Part shown: positions 8,236 through 64,000 of the stretch, in pieces
How the letters are laid out: every line of letters begins with the position of its first letter
Position numbering within the stretch: the first letter of the stretch is position 1
From: a virus
Virus record (IMG/VR): IMGVR_UViG_3300021426_000096
Length of the DNA: 64,000 nucleotides
Reading direction: 5' to 3' (one strand)
The notes under the pieces: generated by a model
Told to the model about the DNA's origin: nothing
The model's input: only the letters and a program-made list of their open reading frames with translations
Database searches by the model: none
Program-made: the position numbers and the translations under genes

Positions 8236-8460
8236 ATGATTTACAAACTTGCTATCGGCCTATTACTGCTGGCCACAGTACTCTACTACATTTTCTGTTT
8301 CCTGGAAATCTTTGAAGTGGTTAAGTTCACAGACAAGAACACCACCATCAAGATTCCCCAGATGTTCATCCCCTTCTATTACCTCCTTCACAATGACAAA
8401 CCTGTGAAGGAAGCACAAAAGAGGCACAGGGTAAAACCTATTATCAAGAATGACAAGTAA
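8236..8460 (+). CDS. small membrane protein
   Basis: LAIGLLLLATVLYYIFCFL helix. Confidence 0.45.
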   Translation: MIYKLAIGLLLLATVLYYIFCFLEIFEVVKFTDKNTTIKIPQMFIPFYYLLHNDKPVKEAQKRHRVKPIIKNDK

Positions 8461-8501
8461 TTAACAAATAATCTATTAACAATTTAAAAACCAAAAAAAT
8501 T

Positions 8502-9686: not shown

Positions 9687-9710
9687 GTAAGTACTATTAG
9701 CCTCCTTCAA

Positions 9711-12252: not shown

Positions 12253-12331
12253 TGGTATAATTCTTGATAATTTAGTGAAAGAAATCAAGAACCAGGTAGT
12301 ATATATAAGTGTAACAAACAAAACAAAACAT

Positions 12332-22083: not shown

Positions 22084-22761
22084 ATGGAAGAGTATAACAC
22101 CAAATATCCCAGAACTTATCATGTTCCCTGGTCACCTGGGGCTACTTCTGATGACAAGAAGCAGCCCGATGACTGGTTCTATGCCTATGGATGGGCAGGG
22201 AGTGAGATAGTGATCACTGAGAAGTTAGATGGTGAGAATACAGCTTTCCAGAATGGAGATGTATACAGTAGGAGTCATGCTGTTCCTACCAGGTCTCCCT
22301 GGTCAAGGAATCTGTGGGACACTGATGGTCTCCTGTGGAAAGTGAAAAGTAAAATCACAGGAGATGAGATCATCTATGGAGAGAATCTCTATGGTGAACA
22401 CAGTATCCATTATGACAAACTGCCGGCATACTTCTTCGCCTTCGCATATCGTAGAGGAAATCATTGGTTTCCCTGGGATGATGTGGTGATGATGAGTGAA
22501 ATCCTGGATGTTCCCACTGTCCCGGTACTGTGGAGAGGGGTGATAGAGACTGAACCTCAACTGAGGAGACTGGCCGCACAGTTTATGGCAGAACCCTCCA
22601 CCTATGGTGACACCAAGGAAGGAGTGGTGATGAGGAAGGTTGAAGGGTTTGACAATGATGATTTCTCCAAGAATGTGGTCAAGTATGTCAGGGAGAATCA
22701 TGTACAGACTGACCAGCATTGGACAAGGAACTGGAAGAGAGCAGAATTGATAATAAAATGA
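22084..22761 (+). CDS. ATP-dependent RNA ligase, Rnl2-like / RNA_ligase family
   Basis: Motif I TEKLDGENTAF (KxDGxN adenylation lysine), motif IV EGVVMRKVEG, motif V NVVKYVREN; order and spacing as in T4 Rnl2. Confidence 0.6.
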   Translation: MEEYNTKYPRTYHVPWSPGATSDDKKQPDDWFYAYGWAGSEIVITEKLDGENTAFQNGDVYSRSHAVPTRSPWSRNLWDTDGLLWKVKSKITGDEIIYGENLYGEHSIHYDKLPAYFFAFAYRRGNHWFPWDDVVMMSEILDVPTVPVLWRGVIETEPQLRRLAAQFMAEPSTYGDTKEGVVMRKVEGFDNDDFSKNVVKYVRENHVQTDQHWTRNWKRAELIIK

Positions 22762-27902: not shown

Positions 27903-28442
27903 ATGAAATTGACAGACAAATATGTGTTCTTCTGGAAGGAACATCCGATGTGCAACTTCACCAAATGTAAGATAAGACTAGATGACCCGTATTTTGTAGC
28001 CCAAGATGAGGATCCACTAGAGTTCACATCTAGTGAGCAGTTGTTTATGTGGTTCAAGGCCAAGTACTTCAAGGATGAGGAGACAGCAGAGAAGATCTAC
28101 AAGAGTTCCTCTCCAGAGGAGGCCAGGCAACTGGGCAGACTGGTCAAGAATTATGATGACAGTAAGTGGGATGGAGTCAGAGTCTATTATATGAGGAAGG
28201 CAGTGACCTATAAGTTCCATCAGAACCCTAATCTCCAGGAGAAGCTCCTTGATGAGAAGTATGCTGGCAAGATGTTTGTTGAAGCTGCATACTATGACAA
28301 AATCTGGGGAATTGGGTTCAATGAGAATGAAGCGATAGGTAACGAGCAGAGATGGGGTCGCAATGAACTGGGCAAGATTCTGACAGCAGTCAGAAATACA
28401 CTGAAGTTGATGAAGGAATCAGGGAAATTTCCAAAAGTCTGA
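27903..28442 (+). CDS. NADAR (YbiA-like) domain protein
   Basis: Aligns with E. coli YbiA: F..C...FTSSEQLFMWFKAKYFKDEETAEKI..SSSPEEARQLGRLV..W...R...M..A...KF.QNPNL.EKLL.T....VEA...DKIWGIG......G.N.LGKIL..VR. Confidence 0.7.
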   Translation: MKLTDKYVFFWKEHPMCNFTKCKIRLDDPYFVAQDEDPLEFTSSEQLFMWFKAKYFKDEETAEKIYKSSSPEEARQLGRLVKNYDDSKWDGVRVYYMRKAVTYKFHQNPNLQEKLLDEKYAGKMFVEAAYYDKIWGIGFNENEAIGNEQRWGRNELGKILTAVRNTLKLMKESGKFPKV

Positions 28443-29288: not shown

Positions 29289-29561
29289 ATGAAAGCATAT
29301 CGTATTATTCGTAATGAGCATGAGAATGGGAAATCAACCTGGGGACTTCAGAAGCTGAAGAAATCCTGGTTGACTGGTAAAGATTACTGGGTCAATTATT
29401 GGTCAGACTCCTGGGAGTATGGTTGGTGCAGATCCGCTGACAAAGCTACTAGGTTCTGTACAGAAGAGGCTGCAATGAAAGTGCTCAATGATTTTCTAGG
29501 ATGTCTAGGCTGGGACATCACCAAAACTACTGTGGTGAAGGAATTCAAATATGAAGAGTAA
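29289..29561 (+). CDS. hypothetical protein
   Basis: 90-aa ORF. Confidence 0.45.
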   Translation: MKAYRIIRNEHENGKSTWGLQKLKKSWLTGKDYWVNYWSDSWEYGWCRSADKATRFCTEEAAMKVLNDFLGCLGWDITKTTVVKEFKYEE

Positions 29562-30351
29562 TATCAATACACTGATTATCCCTGATGTTCATGGCCGGAG
29601 CTTCTGGATGGATCCTGTGGTTGAGGTACTGGCCAATACTGATGCCAAGATTGTCTTCCTAGGAGATTACCTGGACCCGTATCCTGATGAGTGGGAAGAT
29701 GGTGTGGATTACAGGAGAGTCTCCATCCAACGTCTAGAGCAGATTCTTGAGCTCAAGAGACTTCACCTAGGGAGAATCGTTCTGTTGATTGGGAATCATG
29801 ATTGTGGATACTGTATCGGAGATGACATCTGTTCATCCAGGATGGACAGAAGGAATGCAAAAGAGATTGGTATCCTGTTTGAGGAGAATCAGGATCTGTT
29901 CCAATTGGCAGAGGAGACTGACATTGCAGGAAAGCACTTCATCTTCAGTCATGCCGGCATCCTGAAGGGTTGGGCTGACCGGGTCTGGGGTGAAGATGAG
30001 GTAGCAGGTCCTGCATTCAATGTGGTTGAGGAACTCAATGAGGCATGGAGGAGACAATCCTATGGAATCCTGAATTCCCTCGGCGATTACGATAGGTATC
30101 GTGGTTGGGGTGGATACCAGTATGGGTCACCAGTGTGGTCAGACATCAGATCCTGGATCTATGTGAAACCAGAGGATACATTTGGATACAATATTGTGGG
30201 TCATACCCAGTGTGGGTCACCGGTCATCCTGGACACCATTGCAGATCTGGACTGTAGAAAAGTATTCTATATAGATGACCAGGGTGAGATCAGAGACTTC
30301 ATCTCCGGAGAGAAGCAAGAGATGGGTGACCTGAAACCAGATGAATTCTGA
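29551..30351 (+). CDS. calcineurin-like metallophosphoesterase (PP-lambda / ApaH-like)
   Basis: IIPDVHGR (GDxHG), VFLGDYLD (GDxxD), LLIGNHD (GNHD/E). Confidence 0.65.
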   Translation: MKSNINTLIIPDVHGRSFWMDPVVEVLANTDAKIVFLGDYLDPYPDEWEDGVDYRRVSIQRLEQILELKRLHLGRIVLLIGNHDCGYCIGDDICSSRMDRRNAKEIGILFEENQDLFQLAEETDIAGKHFIFSHAGILKGWADRVWGEDEVAGPAFNVVEELNEAWRRQSYGILNSLGDYDRYRGWGGYQYGSPVWSDIRSWIYVKPEDTFGYNIVGHTQCGSPVILDTIADLDCRKVFYIDDQGEIRDFISGEKQEMGDLKPDEF

Positions 30352-36715: not shown

Positions 36716-36790
36716 GGTCTCATAGTTCAACGGATAGAACAGCAGTTTCCTAAACTGTAGATCTGGGTTCGATTCCCGGTGAGACTACCA
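36716..36790 (+). tRNA. tRNA-Arg (anticodon CCU), CCA encoded
   Basis: Cloverleaf GGTCTCA/TGAGACT acceptor, GTTC-AACGGATA-GAAC D arm, GCAGT-TTCCTAA-ACTGT anticodon arm (CCT), AGAT variable loop, CTGGG-TTCGATT-CCCGG T arm, discriminator A, then CCA. Confidence 0.8.
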
Positions 36791-37883: not shown

Positions 37884-38153
37884 ATGAAAAGAATTATCCT
37901 GATTTTTGCTGCACTCTTCTGCATTGTCCTGACTTCCTGCACCAAGCAGCAGGTGACCCGTCAGTTTGGAGGCCAGATGGAAATCAAGCTCCCGGCTGGA
38001 CAGGAACTGATGGAGGTGACCTGGAAAGACAATGACCTGTTCTATCTGACCCGCCCTATGGCCACCGACTACGTCCCTGTTACCAAGATCTTCCAGGAGA
38101 GCTCAGCCTGGGGTGTGATGGAATCCACTGTACTCTTCATTGAAACCCGCTAG
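37884..38153 (+). CDS. putative lipoprotein
   Basis: MKRIILIFAALFCIVLTSC signal plus lipobox; start at the second Met of the track ORF. Confidence 0.45.
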   Translation: MKRIILIFAALFCIVLTSCTKQQVTRQFGGQMEIKLPAGQELMEVTWKDNDLFYLTRPMATDYVPVTKIFQESSAWGVMESTVLFIETR

Positions 38154-38394
38154 TACTATGACAACAATCACTATCTTCATCCTGCCGGCCCTGGCCCTGG
38201 TCATCTACATCCTTCTTCTCCAGTGGATCTCCACTTCACTCAAGACCAGACACTCTGCCTTCTGGTGGATGTTCTTCCTGACCATCCCTCTGGGTGTGAT
38301 CATCACTCTGTTGCTGGACATCAAGGACAACACCTACCCTATGTATGAGGTGGACTCCACTGATGACCCTACCCAATATGACCATCTGCGGTAG
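38140..38394 (+). CDS. small two-TM membrane protein
   Basis: ITIFILPALALVIYILLL and WWMFFLTIPLGVIITLLL. Confidence 0.45.
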   Translation: MKPASTMTTITIFILPALALVIYILLLQWISTSLKTRHSAFWWMFFLTIPLGVIITLLLDIKDNTYPMYEVDSTDDPTQYDHLR

Positions 38395-45772: not shown

Positions 45773-48700
45773 TTAGTTGTCAGCAAGTCGGACTGTCCAA
45801 TTAACAGGAATACCATTCTCATTAGTTGTCCAACCAGACATACCCGATTTCTTTACAAATGTACCAACAGAAGCAACTCCAGACACCCAACTAGTAGTAC
45901 AGGCGCCTGCAGATACACTTGTTGCAAGACATTTGATGTAATTAAGACTTCTACAATTTTGGAACATATATCTATAACAATATGTTACTAAAGTAGAAGC
46001 AAGGAGATCAGGCGCTGTAGTCAATGTAGTACAACCTTTAAACATACTATAATAACATGCATTAACCAATGTAGTTGCCGGAAGTGCAGGTGCCGTAGTC
46101 AATGCAGTACAACCTTCAAACATGCTACAATAACAGTATTGTTTGAGTGATTTTGCTGGGAGTTCTGGCGCTGTAGTCAATGCAGTACAGCCAGAGAACA
46201 TATAATAATAGCAAAAATCTGTCATAGAGGTTGCTGGAAGAGTTGGTGCTGTAGTCAATGCAGTACAGCCAGAGAACATATATGCATAACAATATTTAGC
46301 TAATGTAGTTACAGAGAGAGTTGGTGCAGTGGTTAAACTAGTACAATTTTGGAACATACAATAATAAGCCTGATATCCAACACTACTTGGCATTATTAAA
46401 TTCTTCGCAGATACCACAGGAGTTCCCTTAAACAAATAAGGTTGAGATTCATTGGTACTGCGATATATTGAAGATAAATTACCACCTACTTCAAAACTGG
46501 CAGTTGTTCCTTGGAATGAACTATATAAATCTACATTGTTATCATATATACCCGCTCCAAACTTGAACTGCACAATGTCTCCAGCAACAACACTGATGGT
46601 GGTTCCATTGTCAGAAGAAACAATATTTGTCCAGGTTCCACCATTTTTAGAATATTTCAATGTTTTTATGCCACCAGAATTATATGGATCTTCTGAAGTA
46701 TTTATACAGTAATACTTCCAAGAGATATTACCATCACTTGTTATCTCAAATGTGAGAGGTTCATTAGAATAATCAACTTCAGCAGTCCATCCAGTTGGGA
46801 TACCACTTGTACCAGTAGTCCATGAGGAACTCAAAACTTTTACAAATGTACCCGTTGCTGCAACTCCATCTACCCAATCTGTTAATCCTGAACTGTAGCT
46901 GAGGTCCGTAGCTGAACACTTAATATAATTCAAATTACTGCATCCCTTGAACATATAAGAATAACAATTACTTGCTAATACAGCAGCAGGAAGTACTGGA
47001 GCTGTTGTTAATCCGGTACAACCATAGAACATGTTACAATAACAGTATTGTTTGAGTGATTTTGCTGGGAGTTCTGGCGCTGTTGTTAATCCGGTGCATC
47101 CGTAGAACATACTTCTATAGCATGCCATAAATAAATTAGTAGCTGGGAGTTCTGGAGCTGTTGTTAACGATGTACAACCTTTAAACATACAATCATAACA
47201 GTATTGATTAAGTGTAGTAGCAGGAAGTTTTGGTGCTTTAGTTAAATTAGTACAACCTTCAAACATATTTTCATAACAACCCCATTTTAGTGATGTTGAT
47301 GGAAGAATAAGATGCTCCGCTGATATTAATCCATCACAATCAACAAACAAACATGCATATTCCAAATTTGATGCATCGGCGGACATAAAATCATCCCCAG
47401 CAGTTAACGACATTATGTTTCCATAAACATCTACTTGGATAGATGACGATTTTATGTAAAAATAATTATAATATGATGTGTTACCACCAACATAATTACC
47501 TTTAACTCTTACTTTATCACCGGTAAGAACATCAATAGAGCCAGCAGCATATTTATTTGGGGTTATTTTCTGCCATTCGCCATTATTTACAGAACAATAT
47601 ATTGGATAAGCAGTTGCACCATTATCATTAATTTTCCATGTGATTCTTCCACCGGATTTAACATCAAATGTAAGATACTGCTGTGTATACTCATATTCAG
47701 TTTCACTATAAACATTCCAGCCTGAAGGAATACCACTTGCCCCAGTTGTCCACGAATCTATATTGTCTGCTTTAACAAATGTGCCTGTTTCTGCTACTCC
47801 ATATACCCATTTACCTGTGCAACTATCAGCAGATATATCTATTGCAAGACATTTGATATAATTAAGGTTAGTACAACCATTGAACATATAATAATAACAA
47901 TATTTTGTCAATGTAGTAGCAGGGAGTTCAGGTGCTGTTGTTAGACTTGTACAATTAGAGAACATATATCCATAACAATAACCTACCAATGTAGTAGCCG
48001 GAAGCTCAGGTGCTGTGGTTAGACTTGTACAATTAGAGAACATATAAAAATAACAACATGTTGCTAATGTAGTAGCAGGAAGAACTGGTGCTGTAGTTAG
48101 ACTAGTACAACCATAGAACATATATTCATAACAATATTTTGTCAATGTAGTAGCAGGAAGAACTGGTGCTGTAGTTAGACTAGTACAACCATAGAACATA
48201 TATTCATAACAATAGTCTGCCAATGTAGTAGCTGAAAGCTCAGGTGCTGTTGTTAGACTTGTACAACCAAAGAACATACTGGAATAACAATAGTCTGCCA
48301 ATGTAGTAGCAGGGAGTTCAGGTGCTGTGGTTAGACTAGTACAGCCATCAAACATAGACCGATAACAATAATCAACTAATGTAGTAGCAGGGAGTTCAGG
48401 TGCTGTGGTTAGACTTGTACAACCAAAGAACATACCGGAATAACAATAACTCACCAATGTAGTAGCAGGGAGTTCAGGTGCTGTGGTTAGACTAGTACAA
48501 CCATTGAACATACCCAAATAACACCCAGTTGCTAATATAGTAGCAGGGAGCGTAGGTGCTGTTGTTAGACTAGTACAACCATTGAACATATACCGATAAC
48601 AATAGTCTGCCAATGTAGTAGCAGGGAGAATAAGGTTTTCTGCTGATAATAATCCAGTACAATTATAGAATAAATATGCAAACGTATAAGATGATGATAA

Positions 48701-50926
48701 TGCAATTAAATTAGAGAAATTATCACCACCAATCAAAGACATTATATTACCATCTGTATCAAATGTGGCTGTTCCGCCAAATGAATTAGTATATCCATAT
48801 GAGTCACGTGTTGAATAAGCTGAGTTATTACCCTTGAATCTCACTTTATCTCCTGTGACAACAGGTATAGATACACCTTCTGTTGTAGATGTTATATCCG
48901 TCCATTCACCATCATTCTTTGAATAAGATATGGTTTTTGCAGTGGCTGAACTGGAATTCATCTTCCAAGTGATATTACCACTTGATTTAATGTTAAATGT
49001 AAGATAATTTAAAGGTATATTAAAGATATCATTAGTACTATTACTAACAACTTTGATTTCATCACCAGGATCAAAACCCCTTGCTGTAAATGTTGCAATA
49101 TTATTTGTCACATTCACAGTCTCAATCTCTGTATTATTGACATAAAGTGTCAATGAATCACCATCATTGGTGTAACACTTGATAACCCTATTTTCATATT
49201 TCTCATAATCCTTTCCACAGATATGTACAAACTTATCTGTCTGGTTCCACCAAGCCTTATAAAGATAGAATGTATCTTTCTTTGTCCTGTGGTCTCTCTC
49301 AATAAGACCCTTGTTATTGAGTCTTCTCAACTCATCATCAGTATATGAGTTCTCACCATCAAGACATACTGTATAACCCTCATTTCTGTTGGACACAGCA
49401 ATATCAAAGAACTGCCATTCACTTGTAAACAACAATTGAGGGAAGTTCTTGATCGCTGCGATATGTCCTTCGTGAAGCCACATCTGGTATTCAATGTCAT
49501 GTCTCTCATGGTTACCCCTTGTTGTGGTAGACATATAGTTTTCAGAGTGGCAGTGTTGTGTACCACCACAACCATATTCAGAATAAGCAATAGGTCTGTC
49601 AGGCACATTGTTAAGACGGGTATTAAGTTGTGATGTTGGGTTATTTGAAGATGTGTTTGAATACCAACCAACATAGATATTACAACCATACCAATCCATA
49701 TCAGCACCACCAACAGTTGACCTTGGATTACTACTACTAGCATTAAGCACACAACCAACCATACGTTCAGTATCATATTCCTTGATGATGTCCCTGAAGT
49801 GTTCAAGTTTAGTACAGGCAAATGCTCCACCATCACTATCCATCTGTGCATTGAACTCATTACCAAGTCCCCAGAACATAATACAAGGGTGGTTATAATG
49901 CTGTGTAACCATATCATAATACTGATCTTCAAGATGGGTATAATAATCTTCCGGTTGTGTTGATTTGATATTATTCACCAATGGGACTTCTGTCTGTACA
50001 ATGATACCCAATCTGTCACACCAATCATATACCTCCTTTGGGTGTGGATAGTGTGCAAGACGGATGAAGTTACAACCAACCTCATTAATCATTGCAAACT
50101 CCTGTGTGTAATCAGCATCATCAAGAGCATTGGCCTTTTCTTCAAGGTCATCATGCATACATACACCCCTCAATAAGTATGGAGAACCATTGAGAAGGAA
50201 TCCTGTGTATGTTTCATTATTAGGAAGAGTATAATTATATACATATGAATAATACCTTATACCATATCCTCTCTGGAATCTATGATAAAGGTCACCATTC
50301 TTATAGATTTCAAGAGTAACATCATAAAGATGAGGATTAATCTTACCATTCCAAAGGGTAGGATTGGTGATAGTAGTAATGAATGACATCTCCTCACCAG
50401 TACTTGGTTTCTCATCATAGTAGTGATAGTTACTGTCATCATCATCAATCTTACATACAACTGTTGCTCCAACAGGAACACTGGTCTTGATAGTAAGTGT
50501 TGCTGCTGCTGAAGACACATTAGTTGCTGTTATATGGAAACCATCATATCCATAAAACATATCAGGCATCACTGGACTGGTTATGACCTTCACCTTACCC
50601 AATGTGGCATTGAAGTTAAAGTCTGCTGAACAAGGGGCAAGGGTGCTCCTGGTTGTATTACACAATATAACCTTTATCTCATTTTCACCTGCATGTACAT
50701 ATTCACTGATATCTGTGAAGAATGCATTATATCCTCCCCAGTGGGTTGTTACCTTTACATTATCAACATAGATATCTGCTGATTGGTCAGCATGCTGAAA
50801 CCACAAATAGGTTGGCTGAACCTTTGGCAGATTGATTGTTGTTGTAAATGTGTAATTACCCTTTGAATAAGATGATGAATGTCCATCAATTCTATTAACT
50901 GAATAAGGTACTGTTATATTACTCAT
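45773..50926 (-). CDS. giant modular protein: N-terminal GH2 glycoside hydrolase + beta-sandwich units + BspA-type LRR arrays (candidate tail fibre / depolymerase)
   Basis: First ATG at 50926 (the track start at 50971 is TTG and overlaps the upstream stop). GH2 acid/base HYNHPCIMFWGLGNE and nucleophile PIAYSEYGCGG; then repeated MF.GCTSLTTAPELPATTL..YCY 26-aa units and NYIKC...GIP.GW caps. Confidence 0.8.
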   Translation of the reverse strand: MSNITVPYSVNRIDGHSSSYSKGNYTFTTTINLPKVQPTYLWFQHADQSADIYVDNVKVTTHWGGYNAFFTDISEYVHAGENEIKVILCNTTRSTLAPCSADFNFNATLGKVKVITSPVMPDMFYGYDGFHITATNVSSAAATLTIKTSVPVGATVVCKIDDDDSNYHYYDEKPSTGEEMSFITTITNPTLWNGKINPHLYDVTLEIYKNGDLYHRFQRGYGIRYYSYVYNYTLPNNETYTGFLLNGSPYLLRGVCMHDDLEEKANALDDADYTQEFAMINEVGCNFIRLAHYPHPKEVYDWCDRLGIIVQTEVPLVNNIKSTQPEDYYTHLEDQYYDMVTQHYNHPCIMFWGLGNEFNAQMDSDGGAFACTKLEHFRDIIKEYDTERMVGCVLNASSSNPRSTVGGADMDWYGCNIYVGWYSNTSSNNPTSQLNTRLNNVPDRPIAYSEYGCGGTQHCHSENYMSTTTRGNHERHDIEYQMWLHEGHIAAIKNFPQLLFTSEWQFFDIAVSNRNEGYTVCLDGENSYTDDELRRLNNKGLIERDHRTKKDTFYLYKAWWNQTDKFVHICGKDYEKYENRVIKCYTNDGDSLTLYVNNTEIETVNVTNNIATFTARGFDPGDEIKVVSNSTNDIFNIPLNYLTFNIKSSGNITWKMNSSSATAKTISYSKNDGEWTDITSTTEGVSIPVVTGDKVRFKGNNSAYSTRDSYGYTNSFGGTATFDTDGNIMSLIGGDNFSNLIALSSSYTFAYLFYNCTGLLSAENLILPATTLADYCYRYMFNGCTSLTTAPTLPATILATGCYLGMFNGCTSLTTAPELPATTLVSYCYSGMFFGCTSLTTAPELPATTLVDYCYRSMFDGCTSLTTAPELPATTLADYCYSSMFFGCTSLTTAPELSATTLADYCYEYMFYGCTSLTTAPVLPATTLTKYCYEYMFYGCTSLTTAPVLPATTLATCCYFYMFSNCTSLTTAPELPATTLVGYCYGYMFSNCTSLTTAPELPATTLTKYCYYYMFNGCTNLNYIKCLAIDISADSCTGKWVYGVAETGTFVKADNIDSWTTGASGIPSGWNVYSETEYEYTQQYLTFDVKSGGRITWKINDNGATAYPIYCSVNNGEWQKITPNKYAAGSIDVLTGDKVRVKGNYVGGNTSYYNYFYIKSSSIQVDVYGNIMSLTAGDDFMSADASNLEYACLFVDCDGLISAEHLILPSTSLKWGCYENMFEGCTNLTKAPKLPATTLNQYCYDCMFKGCTSLTTAPELPATNLFMACYRSMFYGCTGLTTAPELPAKSLKQYCYCNMFYGCTGLTTAPVLPAAVLASNCYSYMFKGCSNLNYIKCSATDLSYSSGLTDWVDGVAATGTFVKVLSSSWTTGTSGIPTGWTAEVDYSNEPLTFEITSDGNISWKYYCINTSEDPYNSGGIKTLKYSKNGGTWTNIVSSDNGTTISVVAGDIVQFKFGAGIYDNNVDLYSSFQGTTASFEVGGNLSSIYRSTNESQPYLFKGTPVVSAKNLIMPSSVGYQAYYCMFQNCTSLTTAPTLSVTTLAKYCYAYMFSGCTALTTAPTLPATSMTDFCYYYMFSGCTALTTAPELPAKSLKQYCYCSMFEGCTALTTAPALPATTLVNACYYSMFKGCTTLTTAPDLLASTLVTYCYRYMFQNCRSLNYIKCLATSVSAGACTTSWVSGVASVGTFVKKSGMSGWTTNENGIPVNWTVRLADN

Positions 50927-50958
50927 ATATATTAATTTTTTTCCTTTATTATATTTAT

Positions 50959-57420
<6,462 letters not shown>

Positions 57421-57508: not shown

Positions 57509-58330
57509 ATGGGTAAGATTTTTAGTAAAGTAGATTATGGTAATGGTTCAAAATATTGGTTCTTCTTTAATAGGGTGATAGCCAAAAAGATGGATACCTG
57601 TTTCTATCTATTGAAGAAACCAAAAGAAGGTGAATATATAGGTGATGATTGGTATGCTGGTTGGCATGACTGGAAGTTTGACATCTCTTATGAAGAGTGT
57701 GGATATGATTCAGGAAATGCTGAATTGAATATTAGTATTCTGGGGTGGCATTCTGTATTCAAACTCCCATGGAAGAGTAAGAGATTTCCTGACGGCGATT
57801 GCGATGCACCAAAGTGGGGTATCGCAATTCATAATGCAACACTCTGGATTTATAAAGGTGGTAATGGAAACTGGGGAGGAGGATCCAAGTGGTGGACCTG
57901 GGACATACCATTCTGGACAAAGATACATGTAAGACATGATGTACAATGTAATGTTGGAGATTATGACAGTGACCCTACACTCATAATGGTACCTTATGAT
58001 AACCTGGAGAGATATGTTGATGATAAATATATTCCTCTTGAACAGAATGAACTGGTCTATAAGTACCACTATGATTACACAGACAAGTATGATGGTAAGG
58101 TCATTCCTTGTACTTTCTGGGTTGAAGAAAGGGAATGGAGACCAAAGTGGTTGACATGGACAGGAAGATGGAAAGAGGTTGACAGATATATTGAGATTGT
58201 TTTCTCTGATGAGGTTGGAAGTAGAAAAGGATCTTGGAAAGGTGGTTGTATTGGATGTAGTTATACACTCAAAGAAGGTGAGACCCCTATGGACTGCATC
58301 AAGAGGATGGAAAAAGAAAGAAGTTTTTAA
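57509..58330 (+). CDS. Trp-rich hypothetical protein
   Basis: 273-aa ORF, diverges from the giant gene. Confidence 0.5.
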   Translation: MGKIFSKVDYGNGSKYWFFFNRVIAKKMDTCFYLLKKPKEGEYIGDDWYAGWHDWKFDISYEECGYDSGNAELNISILGWHSVFKLPWKSKRFPDGDCDAPKWGIAIHNATLWIYKGGNGNWGGGSKWWTWDIPFWTKIHVRHDVQCNVGDYDSDPTLIMVPYDNLERYVDDKYIPLEQNELVYKYHYDYTDKYDGKVIPCTFWVEEREWRPKWLTWTGRWKEVDRYIEIVFSDEVGSRKGSWKGGCIGCSYTLKEGETPMDCIKRMEKERSF

Positions 58331-58331
58331 T

Positions 58332-58706
58332 ATGGAAAGTGAATACACCAAAAGAATCAAGAAAAGGATTGGTGAAAATGTAGATGGTAGGACAGATTAT
58401 TTTGACCTTGACCATGAACAAACTATAAATACGATTAAGGAAAAACTTGCTGCTGGCAATTTTTCCTGTACATTTTGGACATTTGAATGGGGAGAAAAAC
58501 AACTTGCACAGGTTGATGAAGAACTAACAAAAGAAGGTATTGTCCATTGCTGGGATGAAGTGATGGATGCCTTTGTCTGCTTCAACTCTGTTGAGGATAT
58601 GAAAAACTTCTATATAAAATTGAGGATTGAAACCCCAGTTGAGAAACTGAGAGAGATTGCAGAGAAAGGATATAATACACCAGTAATAAAATTCTTTAAA
58701 AACTAA
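58332..58706 (+). CDS. hypothetical protein
   Basis: Start MESEYTKRIKK immediately after the upstream stop. Confidence 0.45.
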   Translation: MESEYTKRIKKRIGENVDGRTDYFDLDHEQTINTIKEKLAAGNFSCTFWTFEWGEKQLAQVDEELTKEGIVHCWDEVMDAFVCFNSVEDMKNFYIKLRIETPVEKLREIAEKGYNTPVIKFFKN

Positions 58707-58740
58707 TGTGTCCAAAATCATACAATGAAAAATAAAAGTT

Positions 58741-58923
58741 ATGAATAAATTTGATATAGACTCATTATTGATAGGATTGTCAGTGATCATACTGATCCTT
58801 GGTATTGTCCTGAATTTTTCTGTCCTATTTATCATTGGAATAATTGGTACACTTGTTGTCAGTGTAATTGATTTTAACAAGATGCCTGTTCCAAGAATTG
58901 ATGATGGTGATTCTGATGAATAA
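58741..58923 (+). CDS. small membrane protein
   Basis: LLIGLSVIILILGIVLNFSVLFIIGIIGTLVVSVI. Confidence 0.4.
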   Translation: MNKFDIDSLLIGLSVIILILGIVLNFSVLFIIGIIGTLVVSVIDFNKMPVPRIDDGDSDE

Positions 58924-58944
58924 ATTATTAAATATCAATTAATT

Positions 58945-59223
58945 ATGAAGAATTATACTATTGGTACATTCCTTTATGGAATACCTTCTAATGAAGTAGT
59001 TGCGAGTTATCATCCAGAAGACCAGAGGGTATTCATCTATAATGGTTACACTTCTGGTGATGGATATGGTATGTTGATTGGATGGGAAGATGGCAAACTG
59101 GTACACAGTACAGGTTGGGGAAACTTCTGCTGGGGTGGTGATGTTCGTCTTGCCACAGAAGAAGAGATTAAACAGTTTATGAACCAGGTCTACAACAATG
59201 ATGCAATTCATTATAGAATGTAA
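58945..59223 (+). CDS. hypothetical protein
   Basis: 92-aa ORF. Confidence 0.45.
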   Translation: MKNYTIGTFLYGIPSNEVVASYHPEDQRVFIYNGYTSGDGYGMLIGWEDGKLVHSTGWGNFCWGGDVRLATEEEIKQFMNQVYNNDAIHYRM

Positions 59224-59397
59224 TGGGACTCTATTTTAAATGTCACAAATGTGGTAAATATTTCATTGACCAGCAGGGTGAAAATGAAATTGATTATGAA
59301 AAAGGACTGTATAGATGTCCTGAATGTGATACAACACTTTCAGTAGATTCTGATAGTGTTGAATATGATTATGACTTGTTCAATAAGAAATAATTTT
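59224..59397 (+). CDS. zinc-ribbon small protein (57 aa)
   Basis: CHKCG...CPECD; below the track cut-off. Confidence 0.3.
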
Positions 59398-59426
59398 GGA
59401 ATTATCAGAAAAAGCAATTATATTTG
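59395..59426 (+). promoter_or_regulatory. Bacteroidetes-type promoter (variant -7 TATATTTG)
   Basis: TTTG 59395-59398, TATATTTG 59419-59426. Confidence 0.55.
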
Positions 59427-59433
59427 TAGTACT

Positions 59434-60096
59434 ATGAAGACATACAAAGAATATTACCAGATTGGATTGAGTCATCACCTTGATTGGAAATCAAAACAGG
59501 ATGAAGAGTGGTGGAAAAATAAGAATGATTTTGGTTACCTTGAATTAAAAGGTGATTTTATTGAGACTGTCAAGTTCCTCTCCATTGATGAGAAGAATGA
59601 TGCATCACTGTTCATCAACACAACCAATGTGAAGAACAGTGAGTGGGGCATACTTTTTTCCATGCTTGGTCAGGCACTTGTTGACTGGTGTGTGGAGAAT
59701 GTAAGTTGGAAAAACCTCTGGTCTATACATTTTCAAATAAAAAGGTCTATTGATGAGAATGGTATGAATTTCTATGTTCCTACCATCTCTGTGGAAAATT
59801 TCAAGATAGAAAAGAACGGAAAGTTCAAATGGAAAAAGTCTGAAAAAGAAACCAATGAGAGGAAACTCAAGAAGTTTGAGGAATGTAATGATTTCCTTTG
59901 CAAACTTGTTGTGGAGTTCATTGAGAGTCATGGAGTTGATATTCCCAATGACTGGAATGATTTTAGTTTTGGACTTGACTCACTCTGTGAAAGTTGTAAG
60001 TGGGGCGAGTGGGTTTGTGCATCTGATGGTTATATGAATCTTGGTAACTACAATGTAGAAGAAGGGGAGTATGACCAGTTTGTAGAATGTATGTAA
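59434..60096 (+). CDS. hypothetical protein
   Basis: Start MKTYKEYYQ after the promoter. Confidence 0.5.
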   Translation: MKTYKEYYQIGLSHHLDWKSKQDEEWWKNKNDFGYLELKGDFIETVKFLSIDEKNDASLFINTTNVKNSEWGILFSMLGQALVDWCVENVSWKNLWSIHFQIKRSIDENGMNFYVPTISVENFKIEKNGKFKWKKSEKETNERKLKKFEECNDFLCKLVVEFIESHGVDIPNDWNDFSFGLDSLCESCKWGEWVCASDGYMNLGNYNVEEGEYDQFVECM

Positions 60097-60097
60097 T

Positions 60098-60409
60098 ATG
60101 GGAATGACATATACATATAGTACTGGAAAGATTGAAAGAGATTTTGTCCTGAAGAAGGTAGATGGTAATTGTAATGTGGACAAAGAACACAACAAACCCA
60201 TTGGTGTGATGTGCCAGACATGTCCACACTTCATCAAGATGGAGACCTTCTATCATTCTCCAAAAGACCAATACATCCTGAATCTTGATTCTTATGGTAC
60301 ATTTGTGTTCTGCAAATACTATAAGGAGGATGATGAGGGTACACAAGATGTACTCTATAAACTGTATAATGATTTCAAGCATGAAGCATTGTGTCACTTT
60401 GATGATTAA
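60098..60409 (+). CDS. Cys-containing hypothetical protein
   Basis: 103-aa ORF; CQTCPHF. Confidence 0.45.
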   Translation: MGMTYTYSTGKIERDFVLKKVDGNCNVDKEHNKPIGVMCQTCPHFIKMETFYHSPKDQYILNLDSYGTFVFCKYYKEDDEGTQDVLYKLYNDFKHEALCHFDD

Positions 60410-60414
60410 GTAAT

Positions 60415-60930
60415 ATGCCAGAAGAATTAGAACAAGCAAAACAAGAATATCTTGATAAGTACAAGATATATAAAGATAAGTATATCAACTGGTTAAAGGA
60501 ATCAAAAGGTACAATATTTAAAATAAATGTACCTCCTTCTTTTCATATGTGTGATGGTTTTGAAGGTGATAGTGGTACAACATACTATGGTGGATATTGT
60601 AAAATAATTGGAGAAAATGATGGTAATCCAATTTTAAGACATATGCATATGGATTTTGTTGTACATCAAAACCTACGATTCCCAGATCAAAAGATGTTGA
60701 ATTATGCAAGATATTATGTGAACATCCATAACTTCACAGGATATACATATGAATCTCTTATTGATGTTATTGACAGACCTGCTAACAAATCAGAATTGAT
60801 TCCATTCATAAAAGATATTATGGATGATGATTATGAATTAAGAGGTTATATGGTTGATTCAAAAGATATAGAAAACAATACACCTCCTTGGTGGAAAAAC
60901 CATTCAAAGGATGAAAAATATATAGGGTAA
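60415..60930 (+). CDS. hypothetical protein
   Basis: 171-aa ORF. Confidence 0.5.
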   Translation: MPEELEQAKQEYLDKYKIYKDKYINWLKESKGTIFKINVPPSFHMCDGFEGDSGTTYYGGYCKIIGENDGNPILRHMHMDFVVHQNLRFPDQKMLNYARYYVNIHNFTGYTYESLIDVIDRPANKSELIPFIKDIMDDDYELRGYMVDSKDIENNTPPWWKNHSKDEKYIG

Positions 60931-60931
60931 T

Positions 60932-61561
60932 ATGGAAAGATTAGAAGAATACAAACCAATTGGTTCAGACTCCACCAAGATATATGGATTCAGGTTTGGT
61001 AGATACAGATACCAGGTTGAACACTTTGACCATAACAAATGTAAGGACATTTCTCCCACAGATGATGGTAACACAAGAACCATCAAATCATTATACTACT
61101 GGGATACTTTTTGTGGGACCAGGATTTACAGATTTCTTGATTGGGAATATGAACATACTATTCACTCTGCAATCTTTTTTGATATTTATATTGAAAAAGA
61201 TAAACTGAAGGAAATGATTCTCAATGATGTGATTGATTGGAAACTTGAAGATCCATATGATTTCAAGGACAGATTCATTGAACCTAACAAATATGGTTGG
61301 AATTTCAGTACCCTCTTCCAATCAGAAAAAGAACAAATTAAACTTCCATATCCCGAATGTGAGAATCCTCTTGATATACACCCAAAATGTCCACACTGTG
61401 GTGGTGAACTTGATGGTTCTATCCTGGAGATAGAATGTTGTGAAGATATTTTCAATTCAAAAGGTGGATATGGATATGAGGGTGAACCCTGGGGATGTTG
61501 GGATGAGGTACACAGGTGTCCACATTGTGATAAGTTGTTTTATGTAAAAGAGGAATGTTAA
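60932..61561 (+). CDS. zinc-finger-containing hypothetical protein
   Basis: CPHCGG...CPHCDK pairs. Confidence 0.5.
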   Translation: MERLEEYKPIGSDSTKIYGFRFGRYRYQVEHFDHNKCKDISPTDDGNTRTIKSLYYWDTFCGTRIYRFLDWEYEHTIHSAIFFDIYIEKDKLKEMILNDVIDWKLEDPYDFKDRFIEPNKYGWNFSTLFQSEKEQIKLPYPECENPLDIHPKCPHCGGELDGSILEIECCEDIFNSKGGYGYEGEPWGCWDEVHRCPHCDKLFYVKEEC

Positions 61562-61712
61562 TATGAAACTCATAGAACTGAAAGTCAGGATTAGAGTACC
61601 TGATGATTATGAATGTGATTATCCATTTGATACTCTGATTGATGCCAATCACAGAGATGATATGGAAATATATGATGTTGAAAAGATTGATGAGTATGAT
61701 GATTAAAGAAAA

Positions 61713-61740
61713 TGGTAGGTAATTTTACCTACCATTTTTT
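61713..61740 (+). terminator. rho-independent terminator
   Basis: GGTAGGTAAtttTACCTACC followed by ATTTTTT. Confidence 0.6.
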
Positions 61741-61768
61741 GGAATTATCAAAAAAATTCATTATCTTT
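61737..61768 (+). promoter_or_regulatory. Bacteroidetes-type promoter repeat
   Basis: TTTG 61737-61740, TATCTTTG 61761-61768. Confidence 0.6.
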
Positions 61769-61789
61769 GTAATGTAAAAAGAAACAACT

Positions 61790-62050
61790 ATGACATTTGA
61801 AGAATTTTTAAATAAAGAAACACCAAAGGAAGGTGGATGTATGGTCTGTCTGGCAAAGTACCCAGAAAGCAAATTTGACCGTAATAAAAAGGACTTTGTC
61901 CCTGTAATGAAAGAAGAATATATGCTTGTTGAAAGATATAAAATTGCCAATGGTGATATGATCTATATCAACAAGAGGTTCTTCTATGACTATGACTTCA
62001 CCTGGGATGATAAAACACCTTGGGAAATTCTCTACAAGAAAGAAGCTTAA
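61790..62050 (+). CDS. hypothetical protein
   Basis: 86-aa ORF. Confidence 0.5.
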   Translation: MTFEEFLNKETPKEGGCMVCLAKYPESKFDRNKKDFVPVMKEEYMLVERYKIANGDMIYINKRFFYDYDFTWDDKTPWEILYKKEA

Positions 62051-62052
62051 TT

Positions 62053-62274
62053 ATGGGAAGATTATCTTATGAAGAGATGATAAAGGTATGTGATTCTCTA
62101 ACTGTATTGGAGAAACCTTATCAACCATATCCAACAATCTCAACCTGGTGGAGAACCGGGGAAAATGACAGGTATGCTTATGAAAGTAATTCTTGGACAG
62201 GAGATCACAGGATTATAGACAAGAAGACAAACAAAGAAGTTTGGAGTTATTACACAGATTTTTATACAGGATAA
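62053..62274 (+). CDS. hypothetical protein
   Basis: Start MGRLSYEEM. Confidence 0.4.
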   Translation: MGRLSYEEMIKVCDSLTVLEKPYQPYPTISTWWRTGENDRYAYESNSWTGDHRIIDKKTNKEVWSYYTDFYTG

Positions 62275-62275
62275 T

Positions 62276-62941
62276 ATGATTATAGACAACACAGAACAAA
62301 TCAAGAAACTCATTGCCGGTTGTGGTAAGGATGAGTTCTATATGCTCCAAATCATCCACAGGGTGAAAGATGGACATACTAAATATGAACCACAGGACAA
62401 GAAGTCCAGGGAACAGGTCATCAAGACTTACTTTGTGTCTGGTCCTGATTATCTTGACAAGAAGATGGAGGAGATTAAAGACCTCTGTCGGATGTTCAAT
62501 GCCCGGGCAATGTTCAACCTCAACAGGAAGTCTTGGAAACAGATTTCACTGAAGTCTCTTGAACTGATGGCTCAGGCAATTGGAAAGGAAGGATATGAAG
62601 AGAACTGGTGGAAACCAGTCAGGTCTGTTGTTGAATCTGCCTGTGGTCAGACTGGCGCTTGTGACAAGAACAAGACCTGGGTCCTGGATGTTGATACCAA
62701 GGATGAAAAAGAACTCACCTTGGTGAAAGGTATCATTGATATGTGTGAACCCTTTGACACTGAAAAGGTTGTTGATGTTCTTCCTACCATCCATGGTTAC
62801 CATGTGATTTCCAAACCTTTCAACAAGCAGAAGTTTATGGGTCTCTATGAGACTGCTCATAAAGCAGCCAATGAACCAGTTGAAGACATCATCAAGGATA
62901 ACAATCCTACTATCCTTTATGCTGAATCAAAAGATGAATAA
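62276..62941 (+). CDS. hypothetical protein
   Basis: 221-aa ORF; its stop overlaps the smpB start. Confidence 0.5.
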   Translation: MIIDNTEQIKKLIAGCGKDEFYMLQIIHRVKDGHTKYEPQDKKSREQVIKTYFVSGPDYLDKKMEEIKDLCRMFNARAMFNLNRKSWKQISLKSLELMAQAIGKEGYEENWWKPVRSVVESACGQTGACDKNKTWVLDVDTKDEKELTLVKGIIDMCEPFDTEKVVDVLPTIHGYHVISKPFNKQKFMGLYETAHKAANEPVEDIIKDNNPTILYAESKDE

Positions 62942-63392
62942 CAAACCTAACATATTCATAGACAACCGTAAGGCCAATTACAACTACTTCCTTCTGGATG
63001 AGTATGTTGCTGGGATTGTCTTGAAGGGATGTGAGATCAAATCCATCAGGGAGAGAGAAGCAAATATGTCTGACTCTTATTGTACATTCATTGACAATGA
63101 GTTGTATATTAAGAACTTACATATCTCCCCCTATAAGAATTCTGGATTTGCTTACAGTGATTATGACCCCAAGAGAGACAGGAAACTTCTTCTCACCAAG
63201 AGAGAACTCAGGAAACTCCAGAATGAAGTAAAGACAAAGGGTATCACCATTGTCCCAGTCAATATGTTTGTGAACAACAAATCTGGTCTTGTGAAACTTA
63301 CGATTGCGGTGGCGAAAGGTAAGCACACTTATGACAAGTCCCAGACCATCAAGGAAAGGGATTTGGATAGAGAAATGAAAAATGTTGAATAA
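62934..63392 (+). CDS. smpB: SsrA-binding protein SmpB
   Basis: Full-length alignment to bacterial SmpB: NRKANYNYFLLDEYVAGIVLKGCEIKSIR...NMSDSYC...PYK....F.....DP.RDRKLLL.KRELRKL......KG.TIVP.......G..KL.IAVAKGK..YDK...IKERD. Confidence 0.85.
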   Translation: MNNKPNIFIDNRKANYNYFLLDEYVAGIVLKGCEIKSIREREANMSDSYCTFIDNELYIKNLHISPYKNSGFAYSDYDPKRDRKLLLTKRELRKLQNEVKTKGITIVPVNMFVNNKSGLVKLTIAVAKGKHTYDKSQTIKERDLDREMKNVE

Positions 63393-63443
63393 TGGAAACA
63401 TTGATCCATCTATTGGTTCATTTCTAATTTAAAAAACTATTTT

Positions 63444-64000
63444 ATGGAATCTGATTTAATGATTTATAAGCCAAAACCTTGTGTAATTGTTGAACCAAAT
63501 ACTGAAATTATTAAACCATGTACAGCAGTTGATATGCATAGTGAATCTATGTCTTTTCAACAATATCTTGAATTATCTTTAAATAATCCACAAATTCTGG
63601 ATCTTCAAGATTGTAGTCTTCTTCAAGTTGTAGAAGAATGTATCAAACACAAATTAAGGATGCATCCTCATTATGCAGAACAGATGTCATGCTTACTTAA
63701 TAATCTTCGGTTAATTGAACAACAATTCAAGGTTGTACTCCAACCTATTCAAATATCTGATATCTTTTGGAATTACTTTATCAATTTCTGTCAAGAAAGA
63801 GGTCTTGCATCATCAACTATCAACACAATGATTAACCAGTTAAGAGCAATTCTTACCTGGGGTATGAAATATGGTGTAAAAGTTGTTCCTTCTTATAGGG
63901 ATGTTATCCTTCTCCGTGAAGCAAACAATGAGATTGCACTTACTGCTGATGATGTATCAAGGATTACATATTTTGATATTCAAAGGACTTATTCAAACAG
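63444..64000 (+). CDS. int: tyrosine recombinase / phage integrase, N-terminal part (truncated by window end)
   Basis: SAM-like core-binding region DIFWNYFINFCQERGLASSTINTMINQLRAILTWGMKYGV...; AT-rich codon usage. Confidence 0.55.
   Translation, partial: MESDLMIYKPKPCVIVEPNTEIIKPCTAVDMHSESMSFQQYLELSLNNPQILDLQDCSLLQVVEECIKHKLRMHPHYAEQMSCLLNNLRLIEQQFKVVLQPIQISDIFWNYFINFCQERGLASSTINTMINQLRAILTWGMKYGVKVVPSYRDVILLREANNEIALTADDVSRITYFDIQRTYSN

What the first reader, a model, noticed from the sequence alone, without database searches (positions are those of the whole stretch)
62934..64000. SmpB encoded inside the phage-like gene array, immediately followed by an integrase
A complete SmpB (the tmRNA partner) is translationally coupled to the upstream phage-like ORF (overlap ATGAATAA). 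It shares the local composition, so it appears to be part of the element rather than a host gene at an insertion boundary. 50 nt downstream begins a tyrosine integrase N-terminal domain with different, AT-richer codon usage. ssrA/smpB loci are classic integration hotspots, so an alternative is that the window crosses a host-prophage junction here. No tmRNA-like sequence (5' GGGG acceptor plus T-arm GGUUCGAUUCC with tag ORF) was seen in the window.
Basis: partly seen in the sequence, partly recalled or inferred. Interest (0 to 1): 0.6.

Follow-up and report, generated by a model that had tools for sequence, protein, structure and literature searches.

The report
Phage-borne SmpB beside a mobile integrase
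A complete ribosome-rescue gene (smpB) here belongs to a clade of very large phages of Bacteroidota, a kind of cargo already reported for huge phages, and the integrase next to it is a separately mobile cassette found only in this lineage.

Summary
A full-length SmpB (152 aa, window 62934-63392) overlaps the upstream ORF by 8 nt (ATGAATAA). A tyrosine recombinase starts 51 nt downstream. No tmRNA is in the window.

SmpB is a phage gene, not a host gene at a junction. Its 74-99 % relatives form a clade made only of viral or metagenomic contigs, many 248-416 kb, with conserved synteny upstream. The best match among 185,579 bacterial and archaeal species genomes is 60 % (Bacteroidales). dN/dS is 0.03-0.15.

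The integrase is real by fold and by its catalytic hexad, but it is not part of the conserved module. Eight related loci carry a Ro-like RNA-binding gene after smpB instead. The 95 %-identical relative diverges exactly at the smpB stop codon. The integrase cassette recurs at 95 % nucleotide identity in a different context. Its family otherwise sits in ~101 kb phages.

The junction is genuine: three assemblies carry it, one of them 98.6 % identical. The upstream partner has an AEP-primase-like fold.

Phage SmpB is already reported for huge phages, so this is a new member of a known kind. Open points are whether the clade has its own tmRNA, and what the clade-wide DKR-to-DKS tail change means.

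The parts
62276..62941 (+). Upstream partner ORF (221 aa), PHROG 14949, with an archaeo-eukaryotic primase (AEP)-like fold. Its stop overlaps the smpB start by 8 nt.
62934..63392 (+). smpB: complete SsrA-binding protein, 152 aa, phage-clade allele with the tail GKHTYDKSQTIKERDLDREMKNVE.
   Evidence: Pfam 4.2e-52. NCBIfam equivalogs above cut-off. PHROG 6791 at 3.2e-47. Full-length alignment to PDB SmpBs. Phage-only clade in the tree. dN/dS 0.03-0.15. Tail motif shared by 120 of 120 cloud members.
63393..63443 (.). 51-nt spacer that holds the homology breakpoint. Relatives lose similarity right after the smpB stop (63394). The integrase cassette shared with L100 begins by 63415.
   Evidence: L094 (95 % nt identity) aligns only to 63394. 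L100 aligns from 63415. L237 spans the spacer at 98.6 % identity. No flanking direct repeats.
63444..64000 (+). N-terminal 185 codons of a 352-aa tyrosine recombinase (integrase). The gene runs to position 64502 on the source contig, beyond the window, and two hairpin terminators follow it.
   Evidence: Pfam Phage_int_SAM_5 at 6.8e-5 (above cut-off) and Phage_integrase at 1.6e-3. Invariant R210, K233, H313xxR316, H339, Y348. Foldseek gives 43 PDB hits at or below 1e-3, all tyrosine recombinases. The cassette ext 63415-64637 is 95.4 % identical in L100 with different flanks. No counterpart near smpB in relatives.
57509..62274 (+). Conserved phage gene block upstream of the pair: an Acb3-like CBASS inhibitor at 57509-58330 and small ORFs. 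It is syntenic with the huge viral contigs.
   Evidence: Pfam Acb3 at 9.6e-35. tblastn synteny with L002-L004 at 45-84 % identity.

Best explanation
The window is a fragment of a very large phage genome. Its close relatives are 248-416 kb, and the host is probably a Bacteroidota bacterium. smpB is a vertically inherited gene of that phage clade, captured long ago from a Bacteroidota donor.

smpB is co-transcribed with an AEP-primase-like gene upstream and is translationally coupled to it in this lineage. In relatives a Ro-like RNA-binding protein gene follows it.

The most likely function is the canonical one. The phage SmpB binds the tRNA-like domain of tmRNA and keeps ribosome rescue running during infection. 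At that stage host gene expression is shut down, and RNA damage by host defence nucleases or phage-induced mRNA decay produces non-stop messages. The tmRNA would be the host's, or a phage copy encoded elsewhere in the unseen part of the genome.

The integrase is not part of this module. It is a self-contained tyrosine-recombinase cassette (gene plus terminators, about 1.2 kb). It occupies a hypervariable slot right after smpB in this lineage only, and it moves between unrelated phages.

Shown: the identity, integrity, phage ancestry and purifying selection of smpB; the fold and motifs of the integrase; its lineage-specific position; and the reality of the junction.

Inferred: the tmRNA partner, the benefit to the phage, and what the integrase recombines.
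For: SmpB family membership and completeness.

Close relatives sit on IMG/VR viral contigs of 248, 345, 412 and 363 kb. Cloud members at 81-90 % identity include some on metagenome contigs up to 380 kb. The best GTDB species genome reaches only 60 %.

The phage clade of 25 is monophyletic and lies next to Bacteroidales. It shares their GKHTYDK motif.

Synteny runs Acb3-like ... PHROG 14949, then smpB. dN/dS is 0.03-0.15.

About 75 kb of this phage holds no capsid, portal or terminase Pfam hit. It does hold Thg1, RNA ligases, RlaP, HD, NADAR, a sigma factor and Acb3.

Homologues of the upstream partner occur only in phages of Bacteroidota.

Huge phages are reported to carry tmRNA and SmpB (PMC7162821). 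A 290 kb viral contig carries a tmRNA 460 nt from its smpB.

For the integrase: it is absent next to smpB in eight related loci, which carry DUF2828/DUF7788 (PHROG 850, 'RNA-binding protein') there instead. The 95 % relative L094 diverges at the smpB stop. The cassette is 95.4 % identical in L100 with different flanks. Its 64 % relatives lie on ~101 kb phages that share nothing else with the window. The junction is present in scaffold_302, in NODE_238 and in AUXO013744685.1 at 98.6 %.
Against: No tmRNA was found in about 75 kb of this phage, nor within 10 kb of smpB in four huge relatives. The RNA partner is therefore unidentified.

In all 120 sampled clade members the Arg of the essential tail motif DKR is Ser. 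The tail is also 2-3 residues shorter than the bacterial mode. Mutation of the conserved KGKK or DKR residues, or tail truncation, abolishes tmRNA activity in vivo without loss of tmRNA or ribosome binding (PMC4151336). Canonical activity is therefore not guaranteed.

The contig is only 96 kb and ends 1.25 kb beyond the window. Neither the genome size of this particular phage nor what lies beyond the integrase has been seen. No expression or functional data exist.
Confidence: 0.72

Rival explanations
1. The phage SmpB is an altered-function or dominant-negative factor. It binds host tmRNA and ribosomes but does not support tagging. It thereby blocks host trans-translation, or a tmRNA-dependent host response, in favour of the phage.
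For: The change of the essential DKR tail motif to DKS is fixed in 120 of 120 clade members, while 78 of 80 bacterial SmpBs have R or K at that position. The tail is 23-24 residues against a bacterial mode of 26. Mutants of the conserved KGKK or DKR tail residues, and tail truncations, still bind tmRNA and the ribosome but lose activity in vivo (PMC4151336). No phage tmRNA was found nearby.
Against: Only one of the three DKR residues is changed, and 2 of 80 bacterial SmpBs also have Ser there. The rest of the tail is conserved: KGK, an aromatic residue at the His136 position, and IKERD. Deeper phage branches (L005, L006, L009) keep Lys at that position. Strong purifying selection fits either reading.
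Confidence: 0.12
2. The integrase is this phage's own lysogeny integrase, with attP in an int-flanking spacer. The huge phage is then temperate, and contigs break near int because integrated and free forms coexist in the sample.
For: The recombinase is intact, with all catalytic residues. Our contig ends about 750 bp after the int stop codon, about 610 bp beyond the end of the cassette. Contig L100 starts 30 nt upstream of int.
Against: Eight related loci lack it at this position, including a 95 %-identical one. The same cassette occurs in another context, and its family sits beside fibre-like genes in unrelated ~101 kb phages. No att-like repeats and no tRNA or tmRNA fragment lie next to it. 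No bacterial DNA was seen on either side.
Confidence: 0.2
3. smpB is a host gene, and the window crosses a host-prophage junction between smpB and the integrase. This is the classic ssrA/smpB hotspot scenario.
For: Integrases often lie at prophage ends, and homology with relatives breaks exactly at the smpB stop. Some 'phage' database records do include a host smpB at their edge, for example Staphylococcus phage StauST398-5 at positions 28-462.
Against: In relatives smpB is internal to 248-412 kb viral contigs, with phage genes for 10 kb on both sides. No bacterial species genome exceeds 60 % identity. smpB overlaps a phage-only gene. ssrA is not linked to smpB in 27 Bacteroidota loci.
Confidence: 0.03
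4. The smpB-integrase adjacency is an assembly chimera.
For: Metagenomic contigs break at the spacer in L100, and relatives differ downstream.
Against: Two assemblies of about 96 kb contain the junction. An independent GenBank metagenome contig that is 98.6 % identical, so not the same sequence, spans the smpB 3' end, the spacer and the whole integrase.
Confidence: 0.03

Closest known systems
SmpB (and tmRNA) genes of huge phages (Al-Shayeb et al. 2020, PMC7162821); PHROG 6791; SmpB of Prevotella Lak megaphages
   Same: A full-length SmpB encoded inside a very large phage genome, among translation- and RNA-related accessory genes. Lak and the 635-735 kb 'uncultured phage' records are the best hits in the phage database, at 44-51 % identity. 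Lak-B1 also has no tmRNA within 20 kb of its smpB.
   Different: This clade is distinct, at 51 % identity or less to any deposited phage SmpB. It has its own conserved neighbourhood: an AEP-like gene upstream and a Ro-like RNA-binding gene downstream. It carries a fixed DKS tail variant. In Lak the PHROG 14949 homologue lies far from smpB.
Bacterial SmpB of Bacteroidales/Bacteroidota (chromosomal trans-translation factor)
   Same: Same family by equivalog score, same length class and the same GKHTYDK tail signature. These are the nearest cellular relatives, at 53-60 % identity.
   Different: It is encoded by a phage, is at most 60 % identical, has a shorter tail and has Ser in place of the R/K of DKR. 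Its tmRNA partner is unidentified.
Phages with a linked tmRNA + SmpB (IMG/VR 290 kb contig L008); phages with tmRNA only (mycobacteriophages, Bacillus phage G; PMC4131195)
   Same: A phage-encoded component of the trans-translation system.
   Different: L008 has a tmRNA (tag ARPCMCAA) 460 nt upstream of smpB, inside a 30-tRNA array. Here there is one tRNA in 64 kb and no tmRNA.
Tyrosine recombinases / phage integrases (lambda Int, Tn1549 Int, IntI, Xer, Cre)
   Same: The two-domain fold and the R-K-HxxR-H-Y catalytic hexad.
   Different: The sequence is very divergent. The catalytic domain scores below the Pfam cut-off, and there is no sequence hit in the PDB. No att site is recognisable. The gene behaves as a roughly 1.2 kb cassette shared between unrelated phages, usually beside fibre-like genes.

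Membership tests
SmpB (SsrA-binding protein) | Sequence scores above the curated family cut-offs over the full length | tested here: met
   Pfam PF01668 at 176 bits (cut-off 27), covering residues 9-150. NCBIfam equivalogs NF003843 at 178 bits (cut-off 130) and TIGR00086 at 168 bits (cut-off 119).
SmpB (SsrA-binding protein) | Beta-barrel body with the central loop, alignable to solved SmpB structures | tested here: met
   phmmer against the PDB: 7ljp at 3.4e-39 over residues 7-149; Thermus 1j1h at 3.8e-33 over residues 9-147. Only a 2-residue indel.
SmpB (SsrA-binding protein) | Basic C-terminal tail of about 25-30 residues with the conserved KGKK and DKR stretches (PMC4151336) | tested here: inconclusive
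   The tail is present and conserved (KGKHTYDKSQTIKERDLDREMKN). DKR is DKS in 120 of 120 clade members. The tail is 23-24 residues against 25-31 in most of the 80 bacterial sequences (4 are 24 or shorter).
SmpB (SsrA-binding protein) | A tmRNA partner encoded in the same genome | tested here: inconclusive
   None in the window, in the 9.7 kb upstream or in the 1.25 kb downstream. None within 10 kb of smpB in L002-L005. The rest of the genome, probably more than 150 kb, was not available.
SmpB (SsrA-binding protein) | [quoted passage not shown] | not testable with these tools
   Needs biochemistry or genetics.
Huge (jumbo/mega) phage genome | Genome larger than 200 kb | tested here: inconclusive
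   The source contig is 96.3 kb and incomplete. Syntenic relatives are 248, 345, 412 and 363 kb. Family members occur on contigs up to 416 kb.
Huge (jumbo/mega) phage genome | Phage hallmark genes (capsid, portal, terminase) | tested here: not met
   None among the precomputed Pfam hits for about 75 kb. Viral identity rests on PHROG hits, on Acb3, on the IMG/VR relatives and on the absence of any bacterial housekeeping gene.
Host gene at a prophage/ssrA integration junction | The allele is shared with a bacterial chromosome and is flanked by bacterial genes and ssrA | tested here: not met
   The best bacterial match is 60 %. The flanks are phage genes in all relatives. ssrA is unlinked to smpB in 27 Bacteroidota loci.
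Tyrosine recombinase (phage integrase) | Catalytic residues R, K, HxxR, H/W, Y in order | tested here: met
   R210, K233, H313, R316, H339 and Y348 are invariant in 26 family members.
Tyrosine recombinase (phage integrase) | Core-binding domain plus catalytic domain fold | tested here: met
   AF2 model of the 97 %-identical P0121, pLDDT 75. Foldseek gives 43 PDB hits at or below 1e-3, all tyrosine recombinases, with Tn1549 Int best at 6.7e-7. Pfam SAM_5 is above its cut-off; the catalytic domain is below (18.7 against 27.1 bits).
Tyrosine recombinase (phage integrase) | Recognisable att or recombination sites next to the gene | tested here: not met
   No flanking direct or inverted repeats beyond chance, only two terminator hairpins. 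No tRNA or tmRNA fragment.
Archaeo-eukaryotic primase (AEP) superfamily (upstream partner ORF) | AEP fold with the DxD and sGxGxH-type motifs | tested here: inconclusive

The most novel reading that the evidence does not exclude
The clade-wide SmpB variant (DKS tail, shortened C-terminus, no linked tmRNA) is not a plain helper. It is a phage-tuned factor that captures host tmRNA, either to shut down host tagging or to redirect rescue towards phage messages. It would work within a conserved RNA quality-control module that includes the adjacent Ro-like RNA-binding protein. In this lineage a roaming integrase cassette has split that module.
Probability: 0.1. Interest if true: 0.65.

Novelty: new member of a known kind. 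Interest (0 to 1): 0.3.

Why it matters
This instance shows that smpB is a stable, selected gene in a widespread clade of 250-416 kb phages from gut or rumen-type metagenomes. It is not a one-off capture and not an annotation artefact at a prophage edge.

The clade offers a clean system for one question: does a phage SmpB cooperate with host tmRNA or subvert it? The fixed Arg-to-Ser change in an essential tail motif could be tested directly.

The integrase result is a caution. An integrase beside smpB need not mark an ssrA-type integration site. Here it is a small recombinase cassette that moves among unrelated phages.

Tried and rejected
Megablast of 58-64 kb against 50,697 phage records found no match.

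A scan of IMG/VR with a generic tmRNA 3'-end pattern was meant to find a tmRNA on the four huge relatives.

The listing of cluster members on five cloud SmpBs with NCBI sources returned no names or accessions.

Sequence and profile searches of the PDB gave nothing useful for three proteins. The upstream partner had no hit. The integrase had none as a single sequence and only spurious kelch-repeat hits as a profile. The DUF2828 protein had none. NCBIfam has no model for the integrase or the DUF2828 protein.

Repeat and terminator scans around the integrase found no att-like repeats.

A GC-rich stretch at 37.9-38.4 kb that the source gene caller left uncalled was checked as a possible hidden RNA. 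It encodes a lipoprotein-like ORF and a membrane ORF, and it folds no better than shuffles (z = -0.57).

Composition as evidence for a foreign origin of the integrase was rejected as weak. Its GC3 of 0.22 matches the phage's own giant ORFs.

The 'Jug phage' paper on 360-402 kb gut phages mentions neither tmRNA nor integrase.
Full report
**Observation**

The ORF at 62934-63392 (+) encodes a 152-aa protein. It scores 4.2e-52 against Pfam SmpB. It is above the curated cut-offs of both NCBIfam SmpB equivalogs. It aligns from residue 7 to 149 with solved SmpB structures, C-terminal tail included.

Its ATG overlaps the TAA of the upstream ORF 62276-62941 by 8 nt, ATGAATAA. A new ORF starts at 63444, 51 nt after the SmpB stop, and runs off the window.

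ARAGORN finds one tRNA-Arg(CCT) at 36716 and no tmRNA. Rfam finds the same, both at gathering score and at E<=1.

**Source and extension**

An exact-protein look-up places the window on ENA scaffold_302, which is 96,329 bp. The window covers roughly 31.1-95.1 kb of it, and the contig ends 1.25 kb beyond the window (L001). A second assembly, NODE_238 (96,008 bp), has the same start and ends 321 bp earlier.

L001 gives the whole integrase (352 aa). Two strong hairpin terminators follow it. After them comes the 3' end of a convergent gene ('gene X'), which the contig end cuts.

**Is smpB phage or host?**

Five results answer this.

- The closest SmpBs in IMG/VR lie on viral contigs of 248, 345, 412 and 363 kb, at 86, 82, 74 and 57 % identity.
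- The protein database holds a dense cloud at 81-99 % identity. Some members lie on contigs of 263-380 kb.
- A scan of one genome for each of 185,579 bacterial and archaeal species found 414 SmpB relatives. The best is 60 % identical, in a Bacteroidales MAG. One of the search peptides, KGKHTYDK, is present in 119 of 120 cloud members. A bacterial copy of this allele would therefore have been caught.
- In a neighbour-joining tree, the window, the viral loci and the cloud form a monophyletic group of 25. No bacterial member is in it, and it lies next to Bacteroidales/Bacteroidota.
- Pairwise dN/dS against eight clade members is 0.03-0.15 wherever dS is not saturated.

Synteny agrees. The Acb3-like gene (57509), several small ORFs and the gene upstream of smpB are conserved in order in L002-L004. 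L005 keeps the upstream gene plus smpB.

About 75 kb of this phage has no capsid, portal or terminase Pfam hit. It is full of small same-strand ORFs. Its annotated genes include Thg1, three RNA ligases, RlaP, an HD domain, NADAR, a metallophosphatase, a sigma factor, a Dam methylase and an Acb3 CBASS inhibitor. There are also two giant ORFs of 1732 and 2153 aa.

This is what an accessory arm of a very large phage looks like. I conclude that smpB is a vertically inherited phage gene acquired from a Bacteroidota donor. The window does not cross a host junction at this point.

**The upstream partner**

The 221-aa ORF hits PHROG 14949 at 5e-30 and no Pfam family. Its 275 relatives lie on contigs up to 416 kb. 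In deposited phages it occurs only in phages of Bacteroidota: Cellulophaga phi17:2, Tenacibaculum pT24, crAss-like cr116_1 and the Lak phages. In Lak it lies far from smpB.

It is therefore most likely a replication-type enzyme. Its coupling to smpB looks operonic rather than functional. In L002-L004, small ORFs or a gap separate the two genes.

**The integrase**

The protein is a real tyrosine recombinase.

- Pfam Phage_int_SAM_5 is above its cut-off. The catalytic domain scores below cut-off, at E = 1.6e-3.
- R210, K233, H313xxR316, H339 and Y348 are invariant in 26 family members.
- An AF2 model of the 97 %-identical P0121 (pLDDT 75) gives 43 PDB matches at or below 1e-3. All are tyrosine recombinases: Tn1549 Int, IntI, XerA/H, lambda Int and Cre.

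It is not part of the conserved neighbourhood.

- In L002-L005, L090, L091 and L093, smpB is followed directly by a 513-528 aa DUF2828/DUF7788 gene. In L095 a 100-aa ORF comes first. That gene is PHROG 850, 'RNA-binding protein', at 2.8e-121.
- L094 is 95 % identical to the window over 1.8 kb. It loses similarity exactly at the smpB stop and has another gene there.
- Neither the integrase nor gene X has a counterpart within 10 kb of smpB in any relative.
- Conversely, the stretch 63415-64637 (integrase plus terminators) is 95.4 % identical in contig L100, where different genes follow it.
- The 64 %-identical relatives sit on ~101 kb phage contigs that share nothing else with the window. A 56 % relative also lies beside a fibre-like gene.
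- Gene X matches the C-terminus of a 1041-aa protein on other viral contigs.
- No att-like repeats flank the cassette.

The adjacency is not an assembly artefact. A 26-mer across the spacer finds GenBank metagenome contig AUXO013744685.1. That contig is 98.6 % identical from inside smpB through the whole integrase.

Composition is weak evidence either way. The integrase has GC3 0.22 against 0.50 for smpB, but the phage's own giant ORFs have 0.22-0.25.

**tmRNA**

None is present in the sequence available for this phage, or within 10 kb of smpB in four huge relatives. This need not mean much.

- 27 Bacteroidota chromosomal smpB loci have no ssrA within 6 kb. The donor lineage would therefore have supplied smpB alone.
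- Lak-B1 also has no tmRNA within 20 kb of its smpB.
- A different 290 kb viral contig has a tmRNA 460 nt from its smpB, inside a 30-tRNA array.

Whether this clade encodes a tmRNA elsewhere could not be tested.

**The SmpB tail**

The tail carries the Bacteroidales signature GKHTYDK. In all 120 cloud members the next residue is Ser, giving DKS. Of 80 bacterial sequences, 78 have R or K at that position. The tail is 23-24 residues, against a bacterial mode of 26.

[quoted passage not shown] Binding to tmRNA and to the ribosome is retained.

A single conservative-looking change fixed under purifying selection most likely leaves function intact. It does keep open a minority reading in which the phage protein sequesters tmRNA.

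**Comparison with what is known**

Al-Shayeb et al. list tmRNA and SmpB among the translation genes of huge phages (PMC7162821). PHROGs has an SmpB family. Lak megaphages and the 635-735 kb phage records carry SmpB at 44-51 % identity to this one.

The finding is therefore a new member of a known kind. Its clade-specific features are the AEP-like and Ro-like neighbours, the DKS tail, and a lineage-specific integrase cassette.

**Verdict**

The host-junction alternative is not. The integrase belongs to a separately mobile module.

Interest is modest. The testable points are the tmRNA partner and the effect of the tail variant.

Noticed in passing
L002:10521-12095; also L003:10522-12090, L004:10667-12253, L005:10538-12103, L090:1821-3362, L093:1614-3197: In eight related loci smpB is followed by a 513-528 aa DUF2828/DUF7788 (+weak vWA) protein, directly in seven and after one small ORF in L095. 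It is PHROG 850, 'RNA-binding protein', at 2.8e-121, and is Ro-like by annotation. This makes a conserved SmpB plus RNA-binding-protein pair, and it is missing from the available part of this contig.
   Followed up: partly
L001:10482-11704 (window 63415 to beyond the window end); L100:1-1249; L101:10001-11011; L226:5956-6960: This divergent integrase family repeatedly sits beside large fibre-like or structural genes in unrelated phages. Contigs tend to break next to it. That could mean an invertase or shufflon-like role rather than lysogeny.
   Followed up: partly
window 57509-58330 (+): A 273-aa protein matches Pfam Acb3 (CBASS inhibitor) at 9.6e-35. It is conserved at 63-73 % identity in the huge-phage relatives.
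   Followed up: partly
window 45773-50971 (-) and 50959-57420 (-): Two giant ORFs of 1732 and 2153 aa. One has a GH2 glycosidase domain and BspA-type leucine-rich repeats. The other has Fn3_assoc and CHB_HEX_C domains. Both have many internal repeats and PHROG 9915 hits, and both have low GC3 (0.22-0.25). They are probably host-surface-binding or virion proteins.
   Followed up: partly
window 1686-2492, 2875-3528, 22084-22761, 27903-28442, 29551-30351; L097:3770-4447, 8390-9706: A dense set of RNA repair or modification genes: Thg1-like, HD, RNA ligases, NADAR, a metallophosphatase and RlaP. This fits a phage that counters RNA-targeting host defences, and it is a plausible setting for a ribosome-rescue gene.
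   Followed up: no
window 12275-13165 (+): A phage sigma factor: Pfam Sigma70_r2 (precomputed) and PHROG 351 at 4.7e-37.
   Followed up: no
L008:9185-9540 and L007:9185-9540: A 290 kb IMG/VR contig carries a tmRNA (tag ARPCMCAA*) 460 nt upstream of its SmpB, inside an array of about 30 tRNAs. Its SmpB is 40 % identical to this one. It is a phage with both partners linked.
   Followed up: no
window 37884-38394 (+): The GC-richest stretch of the window (0.50-0.54) was left uncalled by the source gene caller. It holds a lipoprotein-like ORF (signal peptide plus lipobox Cys) and a small membrane ORF. It has no RNA-structure signal (z = -0.57).
   Followed up: yes
L094:1832-1951; L095:968-1270: The slot right after smpB is hypervariable across the clade. 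It holds nothing in most relatives, a different small ORF in L094, a 100-aa ORF in L095, and the integrase cassette here.
   Followed up: partly
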